Below, piece after piece: positions 40,220 to 45,575 of a stretch of DNA of 64,000 nucleotides (its first letter is position 1; each line of letters begins with the position of its first letter). The stretch is from Promethearchaeota archaeon. Lineage in GTDB: Archaea; Asgardarchaeota; Thorarchaeia; Thorarchaeales; Thorarchaeaceae. The stretch spans positions 1-64,000 of the forward strand of contig WJMJ01000071.1 in assembly GCA_014728035.1 (NCBI GenBank), read 5' to 3'. The position numbers were made by a program, and so were the translations under genes. Below the pieces are notes generated by a model that saw only the letters and a program-made list of their open reading frames with translations, was not told where the DNA came from and searched no databases.

Positions 40220-41551
40220 ATGATTGATACAGGTGAAAGAGACCGAATATTACGCACCCATACAATCAAAGTCTTGGTTAACTATGAGAGGTCTTCTCAA
40301 TCACTGAAATCTTTACTTAGAGAAAGATACGATTCTTTTAGCGAATTGAAACAACATCGTAATCTTGTTGATTCACTCTCTTATGGCACCATTACTTATC
40401 TTAATACGATTGATTGGTTAATCTCACATTCTGGTCCCAAATCGGCTAAACAGTTACCAATCCTTGAGAGAACTATTGCTCGTTTAGCTGTTTATGAGGG
40501 TAGATGGTTAAACACAAAGATGCGTCAATTGATAGAATATTACTTACATAAAATTCCTGAAATGATATCTCCTATTCGTAATGCAATCAATACTGATTTG
40601 GAAGAGAAATTATCTTCGTATCCACTCATTAATCGTCTAAGCATTGAATTATCTCATCCAACCTTTCTTGTTGAAACCTTGTTAGATAATCTATCACATA
40701 AACAGGCAATTGAATTGATGCGGACAAATAATGGACAAAGAAGCTACTTCATGAGAATAAATAAGCTACTCCAATCACAGGAGTCAGTTTTGGAAGATAT
40801 TCGAGAGCTTGGTATTGATTTTATTGAAGATTCAGACATATCTGGTTTGTATCTTATCCGTGATGGAATTACCCAGTTAGTTCAATCTGAATCTTTCAAG
40901 AAAGGATATGTTCTAATCCAAGACAAGGCTAGTGTTCAAACCGTCAAGCTTCTCAATCCTAAATCTGACGAGGTGATTTGGGATGCGTGTGCTGCTCCTG
41001 GAATGAAGACTCAATTGATATCTGAATACACCTCTTATCAAGGTACAATTTTCGCAACTGAAAGTTCTAATGAGAGAATAAGTATTGCGAAGAAAAGGGC
41101 GAATGATCTGGGGTATTCTTCAGTTAAATGGATTCTAGCTGATGCTTCTTCTGTTCCTATTAGAAACGCTGATAAAATTTTGATTGATGCTCCTTGTTCA
41201 TCCACTGGTATCTTGTGGAGTTATCCCTCTTTCAAATGGACTCTGAATAAGGATTCATTAATGGCGTTAATGGTTGTGCAAAATAAAATTCTTGATGCTA
41301 TCATTGAAGCATATGAGCATAAAATCGGGACCGAGTTAGTCTATGCAACATGTTCGATTTTACCTCATGAAGGTGAGTCTCAAATCGATTCTGTACTTGC
41401 TCGATATCCTTTCATTGAACTGATTAATCCTGATGGTACTGGATCCATGGGGTATCCAGCTTTCGATTGTGCATCTAGGATTCAGCGATTCTTTCCTCAT
41501 ATACACAATACAAGTGGATTCTTCATATCGCATTTCAAAATTACTGGCTGA
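40220..41551 (+). CDS. RsmB/Fmu/NOP2-family RNA m5C methyltransferase with NusB-like N-terminus
   Basis: IQDKAS, WDACAAPGMKT, IDAPCSSTG, YATCS, GFFI. Confidence 0.9.
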   Translation: MIDTGERDRILRTHTIKVLVNYERSSQSLKSLLRERYDSFSELKQHRNLVDSLSYGTITYLNTIDWLISHSGPKSAKQLPILERTIARLAVYEGRWLNTKMRQLIEYYLHKIPEMISPIRNAINTDLEEKLSSYPLINRLSIELSHPTFLVETLLDNLSHKQAIELMRTNNGQRSYFMRINKLLQSQESVLEDIRELGIDFIEDSDISGLYLIRDGITQLVQSESFKKGYVLIQDKASVQTVKLLNPKSDEVIWDACAAPGMKTQLISEYTSYQGTIFATESSNERISIAKKRANDLGYSSVKWILADASSVPIRNADKILIDAPCSSTGILWSYPSFKWTLNKDSLMALMVVQNKILDAIIEAYEHKIGTELVYATCSILPHEGESQIDSVLARYPFIELINPDGTGSMGYPAFDCASRIQRFFPHIHNTSGFFISHFKITG

Positions 41552-42470
41552 CTCGTCTTTGAACCGAGTCCATGACTCTCTCTGCAAATTGCTTGTCATC
41601 TTTGAAAGCCCAAGGTAGCTGGAAAAAGAGTTTTTGCGCATCGTTCATCGGCTCCTCCTCTCGGGTTACGAAAGCTTTGAAGATTAATTTGGTCCATTTG
41701 AACATCTTAGATTTATGCCATTTTTCCTTTTGTTCTGAAGAATTAGCTGTCTTAGTTAGATACACGAGACCCTCCTTTGGCCTACCAAGCATCAACTCCG
41801 CAAGAGCTGCCATACATGCAAAAGTGACTGCGTTTTGCATTATTCCGGACTTGATGTAATTCTCAGCCCCTTCTTTGTACTCCTTGAGTTTCTTTGCATA
41901 TAGTGCACGTCCATGATAAATCACCAAATCTTTTGTATCATCTATCTCTGCTTTTTTCAGACTGACTCCTTCGAGCAAACTTGCTTTCAATTCCGCCTGC
42001 ACATCTGAAACTGCAGCTGATGTTAGCTGTTGTTTAACAGCTGAAATAATGCCGTTTCCTGCATCGATGAGTGTTCGTTTTGGGCCTGGTTGCATGACAG
42101 TAGGGTCTCCTTCCTGTAAGGCATTTTCTAGCATCATCCGCGCATAAACAAAAAATTCGTATGCTTTATCGGGCATATTCATTTTTGTAGCAAAAGTAAT
42201 TGCCTTAGATATTGCTATGATTGCATTATCAGTTTCTTTCAGGTTTTCAAAATGAGTTGCAGAATCGACTAACCAGGGAAATGCATCGGTACTCTTTTGT
42301 TTAATTGCATCTTGACCTCTAGAAAGTGATGTATAGGCATCAATACAAATGACTGATAGATCCGAACGTTTGCATTTAGCTTTAACCTCCCCATTGGATA
42401 AAACCACATTTCGCAATTTACAGGAAGGACCTCTTGATGAAGCTTCCAAGAATTTACAATCATCAGTCAT
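41541..42470 (-). CDS. alpha/gamma-SNAP-like helical-repeat protein with N-terminal Cys4 element
   Basis: SNAP/TPR-like spacing [28 protein letters not shown] and [24 protein letters not shown]; start at ATG 42470 or 42518. Confidence 0.55.
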   Translation of the reverse strand: [309 protein letters not shown]

Positions 42471-42603
42471 AATTTCAGCTCCGGTTATTGAATCTATCAG
42501 GTTGTCTATAGAATTCATTGTATCATGTACTAAAAAACCAATTCTCGTTGTATCGGTAAGCTTAACAACTATTTACAGTGGTCTGGTGACGAGGTTCTCT
42601 TAA

Positions 42604-42996
42604 TTGACTGACGATGACTCAGAATTGGCTATGATTCGTAAAAAGAAGATGGCCAAACTGATGGCCAAAGAGAAGGCACTCAAAGAAAAGCGTGAACATG
42701 CAGAGAAAGTTCAAAATGAACGAGACCGTCTTCTTAAACGATTTACAGCTCCTGATGCACTTCAATATCTAGAAGGATTATCTAAAACTGAACCAGCTGT
42801 AGCGAAAAGAATTGAAGAGATTCTTCTCTATCTCATAGTTTATCGTGGATTCAGACAGACTATTAGACAACTGGATATTCGTTACATTGAACGACAAATT
42901 AAAGGTGAAGAACCCAAAATCCGTATCCAACGAGATGGCGAAACATCAGATTTTGGATCCTATGTGAGAGAGGCAATAAAGAAAGGAGAAGAATAG
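42604..42996 (+). CDS. PDCD5/TFAR19-like DNA-binding protein
   Basis: DSELAMIRKKKMAKL, LLKRFTAPDA..L..L...PAVAKRIE, KIRI. Confidence 0.8.
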   Translation: MTDDDSELAMIRKKKMAKLMAKEKALKEKREHAEKVQNERDRLLKRFTAPDALQYLEGLSKTEPAVAKRIEEILLYLIVYRGFRQTIRQLDIRYIERQIKGEEPKIRIQRDGETSDFGSYVREAIKKGEE

Positions 42997-42999
42997 ATT

Positions 43000-43899
43000 C
43001 TAAGCGAGCGCTTCAGCTCGACCTTTCCACTCTCTTATAGTGTATTTCAATTCTTCCCGATCGCCCTCTTTCTTTCTCCATGCTCCAGCTGTCCTTCTCA
43101 TCTGAAATATTAAAGCACCCCCACGGGCCATTTTTGTTTCTAGGATGTCCACTGCAGTTTCTAGAGCTTTCACTATGTTTTCTGTTCCCTCTGCTTTTTC
43201 TACAATATCTTCTAAATTATCGAAAATATCTGACGGTTCCCAAGTCTTCCATTCCTCCGCTGGAATCTTGACTTCTCTGTATTTCTTTCCGGGAATTGCT
43301 GTTGTACCCTCTCGTAGTTCAACCTCTCCTGCTGACTGAAGTTCATCCAATATTCTCAACGCTTCAGATACATCAATTACCAATGTTGAGGCAATTTCAT
43401 CAATTCTGACAGAACGTCGATTCAATACTATATTTAATATCTTGAATTTCGGATCTCCTACCGCAAGCACCGCATCTCTTAGCGAATCAATAGCTCCGGG
43501 TTCCTGATTTAGCACATCCGTTGCTGCCTCACTCAGAAGTTTCATATCGTCCTTCATTGCAGCTACTCTTCGTTCAGCGGTTTCCAATTTTTCCTTCATA
43601 GAATATTCTGCACCGCCAGGACGTTGCTTTGACATACTAGCAACTTGCTCTGCTTTCATACCTCTAATTTCTGCACCTACTGTATCTAAGGCTCCCTTTG
43701 TTTTTTCCAGCTCTGACCGTAGCATTCTAATTTCAGAATCTTTCTCAGCAATAGTTCGTTCAAGTGTTTGAACAGATTCATTTAGCTTGTGTGCTCTCCT
43801 GTGAGCTCCACTCAGCTGCGCTTCTAGAGAACCTACTTTTTGCTGGAGTGCAGTGATTTGACGGGTCTTATCACGTAATCTCTCTTGTGGGTCGCTCAT
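43000..43899 (-). CDS. coiled-coil + winged-helix protein
   Basis: ~130-aa heptad region then DPKFKILNIV...IDEIASTL...ALRILDELQSAGEV. Confidence 0.7.
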   Translation of the reverse strand: MSDPQERLRDKTRQITALQQKVGSLEAQLSGAHRRAHKLNESVQTLERTIAEKDSEIRMLRSELEKTKGALDTVGAEIRGMKAEQVASMSKQRPGGAEYSMKEKLETAERRVAAMKDDMKLLSEAATDVLNQEPGAIDSLRDAVLAVGDPKFKILNIVLNRRSVRIDEIASTLVIDVSEALRILDELQSAGEVELREGTTAIPGKKYREVKIPAEEWKTWEPSDIFDNLEDIVEKAEGTENIVKALETAVDILETKMARGGALIFQMRRTAGAWRKKEGDREELKYTIREWKGRAEALA

Positions 43900-43963
43900 T
43901 GCTCATCCCGTTTATACTCCTTCCTCGAAGATTAAAAGGAAATCTAGTGCAGCATCAGTTAAC

Positions 43964-44731
43964 ATGGAGTTATCCTCTTTGAAGCTATTCGATGCTCATA
44001 CTCACATTGATATGAAACATTACAAAAATGATCGCGAAATGGTCATTCAACGCGCGAAAGATACGGGAGTTGTTGGTATGGTCACCTCTTCGATAAATCC
44101 CGGTTCTTTCAGGCGAACCCTCGGTATTGTCCAAAAACATGATACGTATATTTACCATACAGCTGGATGTCAACCATCCCTTCTAAAACCGGCCGAAGCT
44201 GAAAAAATACTTCATCTTATTGACAAGTATGCTGATGACATCGTTGCAATTGGAGAAGCTGGTTTGGACTATCACTGGGTAAAAGACTCTAAGAAAAGAA
44301 AAGCCCAAGAACCGCTCTTTGAAAAATTCATTACTAAAGCACAAGATCTTGGTCTTCCCATCGTTGTGCATGCAAGAAAGGCAGAGGGTAGAGCTGCTGA
44401 TATTCTTGAAGAATACAATATGGAAAATGTGCTGATGCATTGCTATGATGGCCCATCAGAAGTTACACAACGAATTGTCAAAAACAAGTGGTATGTCACC
44501 TTACCTGCGAATTTTGGTAGATATAGAAATCGTGTTCAGGCTGCAGAAATGATCCCATTAGAGTTGATAATGTTAGAAACTGATGGCCCCTATTTATCTC
44601 CAGTTGAAGGAAGGAATGAATCTGCAAATATTATTCATGGTGCAAAATCACTTGCAGAAATTAAGGATATTCCAATAGAAGAAGCAGCCAAAATAACAAC
44701 TGAAAACGCTATTTCTTTCTACGGACTCTGA
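43964..44731 (+). CDS. tatD: TatD family DNase
   Basis: FDAHTH, AIGEAGLDY, VVHAR, MHCY, LETDGP. Confidence 0.93.
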   Translation: MELSSLKLFDAHTHIDMKHYKNDREMVIQRAKDTGVVGMVTSSINPGSFRRTLGIVQKHDTYIYHTAGCQPSLLKPAEAEKILHLIDKYADDIVAIGEAGLDYHWVKDSKKRKAQEPLFEKFITKAQDLGLPIVVHARKAEGRAADILEEYNMENVLMHCYDGPSEVTQRIVKNKWYVTLPANFGRYRNRVQAAEMIPLELIMLETDGPYLSPVEGRNESANIIHGAKSLAEIKDIPIEEAAKITTENAISFYGL

Positions 44732-44783
44732 AATCGATGCTCCTAAATGGAATTATGTACAGATTGAAATGGAATGAAATGAA

Positions 44784-45575
44784 ATGTATTCAAGGCGCTA
44801 TATGGACATAGCTTCTGACTCTCTCAAAAATCCGGTTGTTGTATTAGGCATGCCTGGTATCGCAAACGTTGGGACTATCGCAGTTAGGACATTGGTCAAA
44901 ATCCTAGATGCGAAACCCGTACTAGATTTTTTCAGTGAAGATTTCCCTCCAAGAATTATTGTAAGAAAAGGTATCACGCACTTTCCAAAGTCCACTATCC
45001 ATCTCTATCGAGCCGCACCAGATGAACCCCATGATATCCTTGTAGTAACTGCAGATTTTCAACCCTCTTCTGCAGCTGGTGTCTTTGAATATGCTGAATT
45101 CTTAGCACAAGAATTTTCTGCATTGAATGTTTCTTCTCTTTATGCTCTTGCTGCCTATGAGGTTAGTTACGAGAGTTTCTTCGATGCATATCCTTCTCCT
45201 CCTAGAGTCTATGTGTCTGCTGGCTCAGAAAAAACCCTCAGACAATTAGAAATGATCAGTGGAACCATCGTGTCTGAAGAATCTGTGATTAATGGAGCAA
45301 ATGGATTCATTCCAGCATGGGTTTCATCTATGTATGATATGGAAGGTGCTTGTTTATTGGGTGAAACTATGAGTGTCATAAAGAGGGACTTTCGAGCATC
45401 AAAGAAACTCCTTGAAATATTTGCTGAATTAGTGAAAGTCAAACTCGATCTCGAATTGCTTGAAGCTGATGTTCAAAAAGTGAAAGAATTCATTGAATGG
45501 GCTAAAAGTGAGATTTCTGAACGAATACCTCAAAAAGAAAGCGATGAAAGTCCACCAGATCGATATATTGGATAA
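44784..45575 (+). CDS. PAC2-family proteasome assembly chaperone
   Basis: LGMPGIANVGTIA, GANG, CLLGET, C-terminal YIG. Confidence 0.88.
   Translation: MYSRRYMDIASDSLKNPVVVLGMPGIANVGTIAVRTLVKILDAKPVLDFFSEDFPPRIIVRKGITHFPKSTIHLYRAAPDEPHDILVVTADFQPSSAAGVFEYAEFLAQEFSALNVSSLYALAAYEVSYESFFDAYPSPPRVYVSAGSEKTLRQLEMISGTIVSEESVINGANGFIPAWVSSMYDMEGACLLGETMSVIKRDFRASKKLLEIFAELVKVKLDLELLEADVQKVKEFIEWAKSEISERIPQKESDESPPDRYIG

What the first reader, a model, noticed from the sequence alone, without database searches (positions are those of the whole stretch)
41541..42470. Alpha-SNAP (Sec17)-like protein in an archaeon
Seen versus recalled alpha-SNAP: [48 protein letters not shown] aligns with [62 protein letters not shown]...[28 protein letters not shown] aligns with AKDYFFKAALCHFCID...[28 protein letters not shown]. 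Size (~310 aa) also fits, with an added N-terminal 4-Cys element. Known: SNAPs recruit NSF via its N-domain to disassemble SNAREs. Inference: a possible prokaryotic SNAP-family adaptor, and NSF/CDC48 N-domain proteins occur 14-20 kb away. Caveat: TPR-like repeats give spurious matches easily.
Basis: partly seen in the sequence, partly recalled or inferred. Interest (0 to 1): 0.72.

Follow-up and report, generated by a model that had tools for sequence, protein, structure and literature searches.

The report
SNAP-like helical adaptor, Thorarchaeota-specific
This gene encodes a conserved, unnamed Asgard-archaeal helical-repeat protein whose closest structural look-alikes are the eukaryotic SNAP/Sec17 vesicle-fusion adaptors, but it fails the sequence test and lacks SNAP's working parts, so it is best read as a lineage-specific binding scaffold with an unknown partner.

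Summary
The ORF is real (41541-42470, minus strand, 309 aa). It is single-copy and syntenic in essentially all Thorarchaeota searched, with a longer-linker clade annotated Sifarchaeia/Borrarchaeum. No Pfam, NCBIfam or PDB-sequence hit was found.

AlphaFold models show four parts:
- an N-terminal 4-Cys hairpin;
- three TPR-like hairpins;
- a ~35-residue disordered linker with a very conserved motif (QAELKAxxLGGxSLKKA);
- a confident seven-helix C-terminal module.

SNAP membership is not shown:
- The Pfam SNAP model misses this protein (best relative 21.9 bits, cutoff 25) and cross-reacts with plain TPR proteins.
- The acidic tail with penultimate Leu and the N-terminal FxxLFGG loop are absent.
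- The two halves are separable domains.
- No SNAREs were detected, and the nearby "CDC48-N" genes are vWA proteins without an ATPase domain.

The scan has reported SNAP-fold Asgard proteins on other DNA before, but not this family.

The parts
41541..42470 (-). Coding sequence, 309 aa plus stop (P0002). The longer ORF from the ATG at 42518 adds 16 non-conserved residues.
   Evidence: ORF list; 178 homologues at ~50% identity that start near this Met; single copy in 16/17 same-family genomes and 1/1 sister-family genome.
42336..42470 (-). N-terminal 4-Cys cap (residues 1-45): beta-hairpin 8-17 plus the first helices; C5, C17, C33, C42. Probable structural metal (Zn) site; this is inferred.
   Evidence: Three of the four Cys invariant and C5 nearly invariant (>=90%) in 40 sequences; spacing x10-13/x15/x8 kept in the Sif-type clade; hairpin in the model, pLDDT 72-85. 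Metal binding was not tested.
42021..42365 (-). N-domain of three TPR-like helix hairpins plus a long capping helix (residues 36-150).
41916..42020 (-). Flexible linker (residues 151-185), pLDDT below 50 in both models.
   Evidence: Replaced by a ~100-residue acidic disordered linker in the Sif-type clade.
41946..42008 (-). Conserved linear motif [21 protein letters not shown] (residues 155-175; family consensus dMQAELKAaVLGGvSLKKA). WH2-like: amphipathic helix, Gly, then LKK[AV].
   Evidence: Among the most conserved 10-residue windows of the protein (entropy 0.69); E160, K162, A163, G168, L171 invariant; Pfam WH2 hit on exactly this stretch in 5/40 members, 16.6 bits vs cutoff 23.1; the strict 14-mer pattern occurs once in the proteome vs 0.2 expected.
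41544..41936 (-). C-terminal seven-helix module (residues 179-309), SNAP-C-half-like fold, ending in a basic, highly conserved helix (KDDxEFARRVMxSVxRRI).
   Evidence: pLDDT ~90-96, pTM 0.70 when folded alone; top structural hits Sec17, gamma-SNAP and alpha-SNAP C-halves; occurs as a stand-alone 165-203-aa protein in two other Asgard families.
42479..42482 (-). GGAG, Shine-Dalgarno-like, 8 nt upstream of the ATG at 42470.
   Evidence: Read from the sequence; inference only.
42531..42537 (-). T-rich TATA-like box (TTTTTTA) in the 133-bp region shared with the divergent PDCD5-like gene.
   Evidence: Read from the sequence; inference only. A transcription start ~25 nt downstream would exclude the ATG at 42518.
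42604..42996 (+). Divergently transcribed PDCD5-like gene (Pfam dsDNA_bind), a conserved neighbour.
   Evidence: Pfam 28.3 bits; adjacent to the target in 18/18 genomes.
40220..41551 (+). Convergent RsmB/NOP2-type RNA m5C methyltransferase gene, a conserved neighbour whose 3' end overlaps the target's by 11 nt.
   Evidence: Pfam Methyltr_RsmB-F 142 bits; adjacent in 18/18 genomes.

Best explanation
The gene encodes a soluble, cytoplasmic, lineage-restricted (Thorarchaeota plus a clade annotated Sifarchaeia/Borrarchaeum) protein-binding adaptor built from two separable alpha-solenoid domains. The first is a Cys4-capped three-TPR N-domain of the kind that clamps peptide tails. The second is a seven-helix C-module whose fold is closest to the C-terminal half of SNAP/Sec17. 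They are joined by a disordered tether carrying a strongly conserved short linear motif. It most likely works as a scaffold: each solenoid surface holds a partner, and the tethered helix-plus-LKKA motif docks onto a third, conserved partner. My leading candidate for that partner is the barbed-end cleft of the genome's actin, WH2-style, at roughly 20-25% likelihood. The protein belongs to the broad TPR/SNAP-like solenoid superfamily, and its nearest detectable relative is another Thorarchaeal SNAP-like family. It is not a demonstrable member of the SNAP family and probably does not do the SNAP job of recruiting an NSF-type ATPase to SNARE bundles. Shown: gene, conservation, domain layout, fold ranking, absence of SNAP hallmarks. 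Inferred: metal binding, scaffold role, partner identity.
For: Real and conserved: 178 homologues at ~50% identity; single copy in 16/17 same-family and 1/1 sister-family genomes; fixed synteny in 18/18. Narrow family: only 10 representatives among 1.8 billion proteins, and a profile search finds only Asgard proteins. Layout from two models. N-domain matches 3-TPR domains at 2.3-3 Å. C-module matches SNAP C-halves best. Modularity: the C-module occurs alone in families f15 and f18, and Sif-type proteins separate the halves by ~100 disordered residues. The linker motif is as conserved as the folded core yet stays unpacked. Profile-profile matrix: target vs the Thor 243-aa Pfam-positive SNAP-like family 62% (E 7.6e-5, 154 collinear columns), against 3% for an ordinary TPR family and about 1% for metazoan SNAP. 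That SNAP-like family is itself 91% to ordinary TPR and 79% to SNAP. Soluble: maximum hydropathy 1.52.
Confidence: 0.6

Rival explanations
1. It is a WH2-type actin regulator. The conserved linker motif (helix QAELKAxxL, Gly-Gly, then SLKKA) binds the hydrophobic cleft of Thorarchaeal actin as eukaryotic WH2 domains do, and the two solenoids couple actin monomers to other partners. This is a specific version of the best explanation, not an alternative to its architecture.
For: Position-by-position match to the WASP/WAVE-type core L-x-x-x-[IV]-x-x-G-x-x-L-K-K-[VA]. The motif lies in a disordered tether, the usual setting for WH2. Pfam WH2 hits exactly this stretch in 5/40 members. The strict pattern is unique in the proteome (1 observed vs 0.2 expected). 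In G005 the best genome-wide WH2-profile hit lies inside this gene by coordinates, and in four more relatives it falls in an ORF of family length at the same profile region. The genome encodes a canonical actin (419 bits). In the papers found, the only Asgard WH2-like elements are the 4-residue LKKT-like strands of gelsolins (PMC9433394; bioRxiv 10.1101/2025.11.30.690169).
Against: All WH2 scores are below threshold (16.6 vs 23.1 bits). Genome-scale E-values of 0.06-1 equal the noise seen in 8/14 control bacteria. This window's own copy gives no hit at all. The pattern was defined after seeing the motif. The basic LKK is Thor-specific: relatives have LKPA, ILSPV, IIPA or KHYS, so the ancestral motif may serve the C-module in another way.
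Confidence: 0.2
2. It is a genuine, highly diverged SNAP-family homologue that acts as an adaptor for an archaeal Cdc48-like AAA+ unfoldase (a 'proto-SNAP').
For: SNAPs rank first in four structure searches by two methods, on the whole protein and on the C-module. Size and helix count are alike (13 vs 14 helices, ~300 aa). There is a collinear sub-threshold Pfam SNAP hit over the C-half in relative P0093 (167-305 vs profile 105-245, 21.9 bits). There is a 62% profile link to a Pfam-positive Thor SNAP-like family. A recent preprint on Heimdall SNAREs leaves open that a Cdc48-like ATPase disassembles them and names no adaptor (bioRxiv 10.64898/2026.10.19.760048).
Against: No Pfam SNAP hit for this protein, and divergent relatives hit GET4 or Cnd3 instead. 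The SNAP model scores an ordinary TPR protein at 39.5 bits. Profile vs metazoan SNAP is about 1%. The C-terminus is basic (RRVSQ/RRISA) whereas 12/12 SNAPs end DEEDL[RK]. The FxxLFGG loop is absent. The two halves are separable, whereas SNAP's helical sheet is known to be continuous. No SNARE or synaptobrevin hit exceeds control noise. Better SNAP candidates exist in the same genome.
Confidence: 0.1
3. It is a Get4-like or co-chaperone-type TPR scaffold, for example in tail-anchored protein targeting or chaperone tail binding.
Against: GET4 is below threshold (cutoff 30) and seen in one relative only. SNAPs outrank Get4 everywhere. No Get3/Get5 linkage was examined, and clamp residues were not verified.
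Confidence: 0.05
4. It is a fragment-sized Vps35 (retromer)-like protein. Vps35 is the commonest weak Pfam hit, and Asgard 'Vps35' ESPs have been called by best Pfam hit (Eme et al. 2023, PMC10307638).
For: Vps35 is hit in 23/40 members (best E 1e-4; residues ~55-125 vs profile 530-604 of 726). Eme et al. report sparse Asgard Vps35 homologues and describe their best-Pfam-hit criterion.
Against: Among ten members scanned singly, scores were 11-16 bits against a cutoff of 35, over only ~70 residues of a 726-position model. Vps35 is absent from the listed top matches of the four fold searches. The protein is 309 aa, far shorter than the 726-position Vps35 model.
Confidence: 0.02

Closest known systems
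SNAP family: alpha/beta/gamma-SNAP and yeast Sec17 (Pfam PF14938; PDB 9cru, 2ifu, 6mdm, 1qqe)
   Different: No significant sequence match. A Cys4 hairpin replaces the hydrophobic membrane loop. A 35-residue disordered, motif-bearing tether splits the solenoid after helix 6. The halves are separable domains. The C-terminus is basic, without the acidic run and penultimate Leu. No SNAREs were detected in the genome.
Thorarchaeal 243-aa SNAP-like family (own genome contig C130:105754-106482; Pfam SNAP 28.1 bits)
   Same: Nearest detectable relative by profile comparison (62%, E 7.6e-5, 154 collinear columns across both halves); same lineage distribution (17/17 same-family genomes plus the sister family).
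   Different: It lacks the 4-Cys cap spacing, the long helix and the linker motif, which appear as an insertion in the target. It is itself as close to ordinary TPR proteins (91%) as to SNAPs (79%).
Three-repeat TPR peptide-binding domains (Hop/Sti1 TPR2A/B, Sgt2, CHIP, FLU, TSK)
   Different: Cys4 cap at the N-terminus; carboxylate-clamp residues not verified; profile comparison with an ordinary TPR family from the same genomes gives only 3%.
Get4 and PCI-type lid subunits (Rpn, CSN8)
   Different: Ranks below SNAPs; no winged-helix (PCI) domain; no Get3/Get5 context examined.
WH2 domain (Pfam PF02205; WASP/WAVE/WIP, thymosin beta-4) and the LKKT-like strand of Asgard gelsolins
   Same: Amphipathic helix, Gly, then L-K-K-[AV] at canonical spacing, in a disordered segment; the organism has actin.
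   Different: Below the Pfam threshold; not in a gelsolin; LKK not conserved outside Thorarchaeota; actin binding untested.

Membership tests
SNAP (PF14938) | Sequence match to the curated family model at or above its gathering score (25 bits) | tested here: not met
   No hit at E<=10 for this protein and none in the whole-genome scan. Four of 40 relatives hit, the best at 21.9 bits. The model also scores an ordinary TPR protein at 39.5 bits and rings in 11/14 control genomes.
SNAP (PF14938) | C-terminal helical bundle fold | tested here: met
SNAP (PF14938) | One continuous twisted sheet of nine N-terminal helices joined rigidly to the bundle | tested here: not met
   Six helices, then a disordered 35-residue tether. 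Whole-model superpositions have rmsd 18-22 Å. The C-module occurs alone, and the halves lie ~100 residues apart in the Sif-type clade.
SNAP (PF14938) | Acidic C-terminal tail with penultimate Leu (NSF binding and ATPase stimulation) | tested here: not met
   12/12 SNAPs end ...D/E-rich-D-L-[RK]. The family ends ...RRVSQ/RRISA, with median net charge +2 over the last 15 residues and a Leu in the last three residues in only 4/40.
SNAP (PF14938) | N-terminal hydrophobic membrane-insertion loop (SFFGxLFGG) | tested here: not met
   Present in the SNAP consensus. The family N-terminus is a Cys4 beta-hairpin.
SNAP (PF14938) | Cognate SNARE substrates and an NSF-type ATPase in the same organism | tested here: inconclusive
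   Pfam SNARE and Synaptobrevin give only sub-threshold hits (E 0.1-0.3), at the noise level of control bacteria. Divergent SNARE-like proteins could be missed. The nearby CDC48-N-like genes are vWA proteins without AAA domains. Cdc48 itself was not searched.
WH2 (PF02205) | Match to the family model at or above 23.1 bits | tested here: not met
   Best relative 16.6 bits. No hit in this genome. Genome-scale E 0.06-1 in relatives, the same as control noise.
WH2 (PF02205) | Amphipathic helix followed by LKK[TVA] at canonical spacing, in a disordered segment | tested here: met
   L161-x3-L165 (V/I in most members)-x2-G168-x2-L171-K172-K173-A174. The block is invariant or nearly so in 40 sequences. 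pLDDT is below 50 in two models.
WH2 (PF02205) | Binds monomeric actin in the barbed-end cleft | not testable with these tools
A binding assay is needed.
TPR-like alpha-solenoid superfamily | Stacked helix-turn-helix repeats with TPR geometry | tested here: met
GET4 (PF04190) | Match to the family model at or above 30 bits | tested here: not met
Vps35 (PF03635) | Match to the family model at or above 35 bits, and a long HEAT-like solenoid | tested here: not met
   11-16 bits over ~70 residues in the ten members scanned singly; hits in 23/40 members, best E 1e-4. The protein is 309 aa.

The most novel reading that the evidence does not exclude
The conserved tether motif is a genuine stand-alone WH2 domain. 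That would make this the first non-gelsolin WH2-type actin-binding protein in Asgard archaea: a Zn-capped TPR/SNAP-like scaffold that hands actin monomers to, or recruits them at, other cellular partners. It would imply that WH2-style actin regulation predates eukaryotes or arose independently in Thorarchaeota.
Probability: 0.2. Interest if true: 0.8.

Novelty: new variant of a known kind. Interest (0 to 1): 0.4.

Why it matters
Whether Asgard archaea had parts of the membrane-fusion machinery (SNAREs, SNAP, NSF) is an open question in eukaryogenesis. This protein shows how easily a SNAP-like fold appears among the expanded Asgard solenoid families without the features that make a SNAP work, so fold-based 'eukaryotic signature' calls for SNAP need hallmark checks. 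In its own right it is an undescribed family, universally kept in Thorarchaeota, with an unusual layout: a Cys4 cap, a TPR domain, a tethered linear motif and a SNAP-like module. The motif gives a cheap, decisive experiment (actin binding) that could add a new class of actin regulator to the Asgard cytoskeleton.

Tried and rejected

2. hhalign of the family against a metazoan-only SNAP alignment gave about 1%. An ordinary TPR protein that scores 39.5 bits on Pfam SNAP gave only 2% as a single sequence, so that negative is weak. The comparisons were repeated with real alignments and controls.

3. Direct BLASTP against alpha-SNAP gave E 0.86.

5. The WH2 profile at genome scale is indistinguishable from noise.

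6. SNARE and Synaptobrevin profiles in the genome gave noise only.

7. By eye, the linker and C-terminal helix do not fit p97/Cdc48-binding motifs (SHP, VIM, VBM) or the MIM1 consensus.

9. PDB sequence searches with the single protein and with the profile found nothing significant.

10. Literature searches for Asgard plus alpha-SNAP, Sec17 or 'NSF attachment' found no report of an Asgard SNAP homologue.
Full report
**Observation**

The window has an intact minus-strand ORF at 41541-42518. Homologue N-termini, database gene calls and a GGAG 8 nt upstream support the ATG at 42470. It has no hit in Pfam, NCBIfam or PDB sequences. The profile of 40 relatives gives only a non-significant match of one hairpin to designed consensus TPRs.

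**Family and distribution**

A word-indexed search found 178 relatives, nearly all labelled Thorarchaeota, at ~50% identity and without any Pfam domain. An exhaustive HMMER scan of 1.8 billion representatives found only 10 clusters.

In 121 sampled Asgard genomes:
- The full-length gene is single-copy in 16/17 genomes of the window's family and 1/1 of the sister family.
- Only its C-terminal ~130 residues recur, as a stand-alone 165-203-aa protein, in two other families (f15 4/4, f18 1/1).
- Nothing was found in the other families searched.

A profile search that included distant members found only Asgard proteins. Among them is a 385-397-aa clade annotated Sifarchaeia/Borrarchaeum, in which the same N- and C-domains are separated by a ~100-residue acidic disordered linker.

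Gene order is conserved in 18/18 genomes: RsmB/NOP2-type methyltransferase, then the target (convergent), then a divergent PDCD5-like gene. This is a housekeeping neighbourhood and gives no functional pointer.

**Architecture**

AlphaFold2 on the 40-sequence alignment gave pLDDT 79.8 and pTM 0.49. The model has:
- a beta-hairpin (residues 8-17) followed by the first helices. Three of the four Cys are invariant and C5 is nearly so (C5, C17, C33, C42; spacing conserved even at 22% identity);
- three TPR-like hairpins and a long helix (to about residue 160);
- a segment with pLDDT below 50 (161-185);
- seven more helices.

Folding residues 146-309 alone, with a more diverse alignment, gave a very confident core (179-308, pLDDT ~90-96, pTM 0.70). 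The conserved motif upstream of it stayed unpacked. There is no transmembrane segment.

**The SNAP question: structure**

- *Whole model, Foldseek against PDB.* The top ~20 chains are all Sec17, alpha-SNAP or gamma-SNAP (E from 8e-3, probability 1.0). TM-scores are only 0.26-0.33 and rmsd ~20 Å, because the two halves do not superpose together.

**The SNAP question: sequence**

*Pfam SNAP model.* It misses this protein. It reaches 21.9 bits (cutoff 25) in one relative, collinearly over the C-half. The same model:
- rings in 11/14 control genomes;
- gives 14 other hits in this genome;
- scores a textbook TPR protein at 39.5 bits.

Divergent relatives of the target hit GET4 or Cnd3 instead of SNAP.

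BLASTP gives E 0.86.

*Controls with real alignments.*

| Pair | hhalign result |
|---|---|
| target vs a Thorarchaeal 243-aa family whose only Pfam hit is SNAP (28.1 bits) | 62%, E 7.6e-5, 154 collinear columns, with the target's long helix and linker as an insertion |
| target vs an ordinary TPR family | 3% |
| that SNAP-like family vs ordinary TPR | 91% |
| that SNAP-like family vs metazoan SNAP | 79%, 51 columns |
| ordinary TPR vs metazoan SNAP | 56% |

The chain leads into the general TPR/SNAP solenoid superfamily, not specifically to SNAP.

**SNAP hallmarks**

- All 12 SNAPs end in an acidic run with a penultimate Leu. The family ends in a basic RRVSQ/RRISA.
- The SFFGxLFGG membrane loop of SNAPs is replaced by the Cys4 hairpin.
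- The separable halves contradict a continuous SNAP sheet.
- SNARE and synaptobrevin profiles give only control-level noise in this genome.
- The 'CDC48 N-domain' genes 14-20 kb away are vWA proteins with no AAA domain. This agrees with earlier notes on this window.
- No paper in the library reports an Asgard SNAP. The recent Heimdall SNARE preprint only speculates about a Cdc48-like disassembly enzyme.
- The scan itself holds 32 earlier SNAP-like Asgard findings in at least 25 genomes. The eight shown, seven of them with a follow-up verdict, read them as SNAP-like scaffolds rather than working SNAPs. None concerns this family.

**The linker motif**

Residues 155-175 (consensus dMQAELKAaVLGGvSLKKA) are as conserved as the folded core yet disordered in both models. 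The motif aligns position by position with the WASP/WAVE-type WH2 core (L-x3-[IV]-x2-G-x2-L-K-K-[VA]).

*In favour.*
- Pfam WH2 hits exactly this stretch in 5/40 members (16.6 bits, cutoff 23.1).
- The strict 14-mer occurs once in the proteome against 0.2 expected.
- In G005 the best genome-wide WH2-profile hit lies inside this gene by coordinates. In four more relatives it falls in an ORF of family length at the same profile region.
- The genome has a canonical actin.

*Against.*
- The genome-scale E-values (0.06-1) equal control noise.
- This window's own copy gives no hit.
- The pattern was defined after the fact.
- The LKK is Thor-specific: relatives have LKPA, ILSPV, IIPA or KHYS. The ancestral element is therefore the helix-Gly-hydrophobic part, which always accompanies the C-module.

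In the papers found, Asgard WH2-like elements are only the four-residue LKKT-like strands of gelsolins.

**Conclusion**

This is a real, conserved, undescribed Thorarchaeota/Sif-type family: a modular alpha-solenoid adaptor made of a Cys4-capped TPR domain, a tethered linear motif, and a SNAP-C-half-like module. It resembles SNAP in fold more than anything else solved. It fails the sequence test and every functional hallmark tested, and it is not the best SNAP candidate in its own genome.

**Limits**

All structures are predictions compared with PDB only. The SNAP profile I could build was metazoan-only. Metal binding, partners and actin binding are untested.

Noticed in passing
Own genome, contig C103 (outside the window): L009:1052-1081, within the actin gene L009:1054-2157 (-): The canonical actin gene carries a 30-nt insertion with an in-frame TAA between ...LKTFQ and (K)MWVSRKEFEEAGPEVIHRCI. 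Removing it restores the canonical frame. Two relatives (G069, G075) have the same insertion and other relatives lack it. All three fold into the same helix-bulge-helix-bulge-helix shape, whose bulges bracket exactly the 30 nt, with compensatory changes in the inner stem (z -4.5, -5.1, -2.1; an intact relative gives -0.6). This is a candidate BHB-type mini-intron in a protein-coding (actin) mRNA.
   Followed up: partly
Own genome, contig C130:105754-106482 (+) and about 106488-107780 (-) (L005:1471-2199; L006:712-2001): A convergent pair of Pfam-positive SNAP-like genes. One is a 243-aa protein whose only Pfam hit is SNAP (28.1 bits); it is present in 17/17 same-family genomes. The other is a 430-aa protein with SNAP (25.3 bits) plus CARDB/DUF11 Ig-like domains. 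The 243-aa family is 91% (hhalign) to an ordinary TPR family and 79% to metazoan SNAP.
   Followed up: partly
window 43000-43899 (-): A 299-aa protein with an N-terminal coiled coil and a C-terminal winged-helix-like region (faint MarR/TrmB hits). It is a conserved neighbour in 12 of the 18 loci with a full-length target gene; function unknown.
   Followed up: no
window 40220-45575: A stable housekeeping block conserved across Thorarchaeota: RsmB/NOP2-type methyltransferase, the target, a PDCD5-like dsDNA_bind protein, the coiled-coil/wHTH protein, TatD and a PAC2-family protein. In the sister family the PDCD5-like gene is co-directional with the target instead of divergent.
   Followed up: partly
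Own genome, contig C34:19550-20533 (-) (L010): A second, divergent actin-family gene (Pfam Actin 174 bits, 369-aa frame) beside the canonical actin; possibly an Arp-like paralogue.
   Followed up: no
Relatives G016:C69:3824-3862, G069:C32:23229-23267, G027:C9:152652-152690: Recurrent sub-threshold WH2-profile hits (profile positions 2-14) in other ORFs of 175-515 aa in several Thorarchaeota genomes; not examined.
   Followed up: no
P0130, P0292-P0303 (annotated Sifarchaeia/Borrarchaeum; not in the window): A sister clade of the family keeps the Cys4-TPR domain and the C-module but inserts a ~100-residue acidic, Thr/Pro/Glu-rich disordered linker between them.
   Followed up: partly
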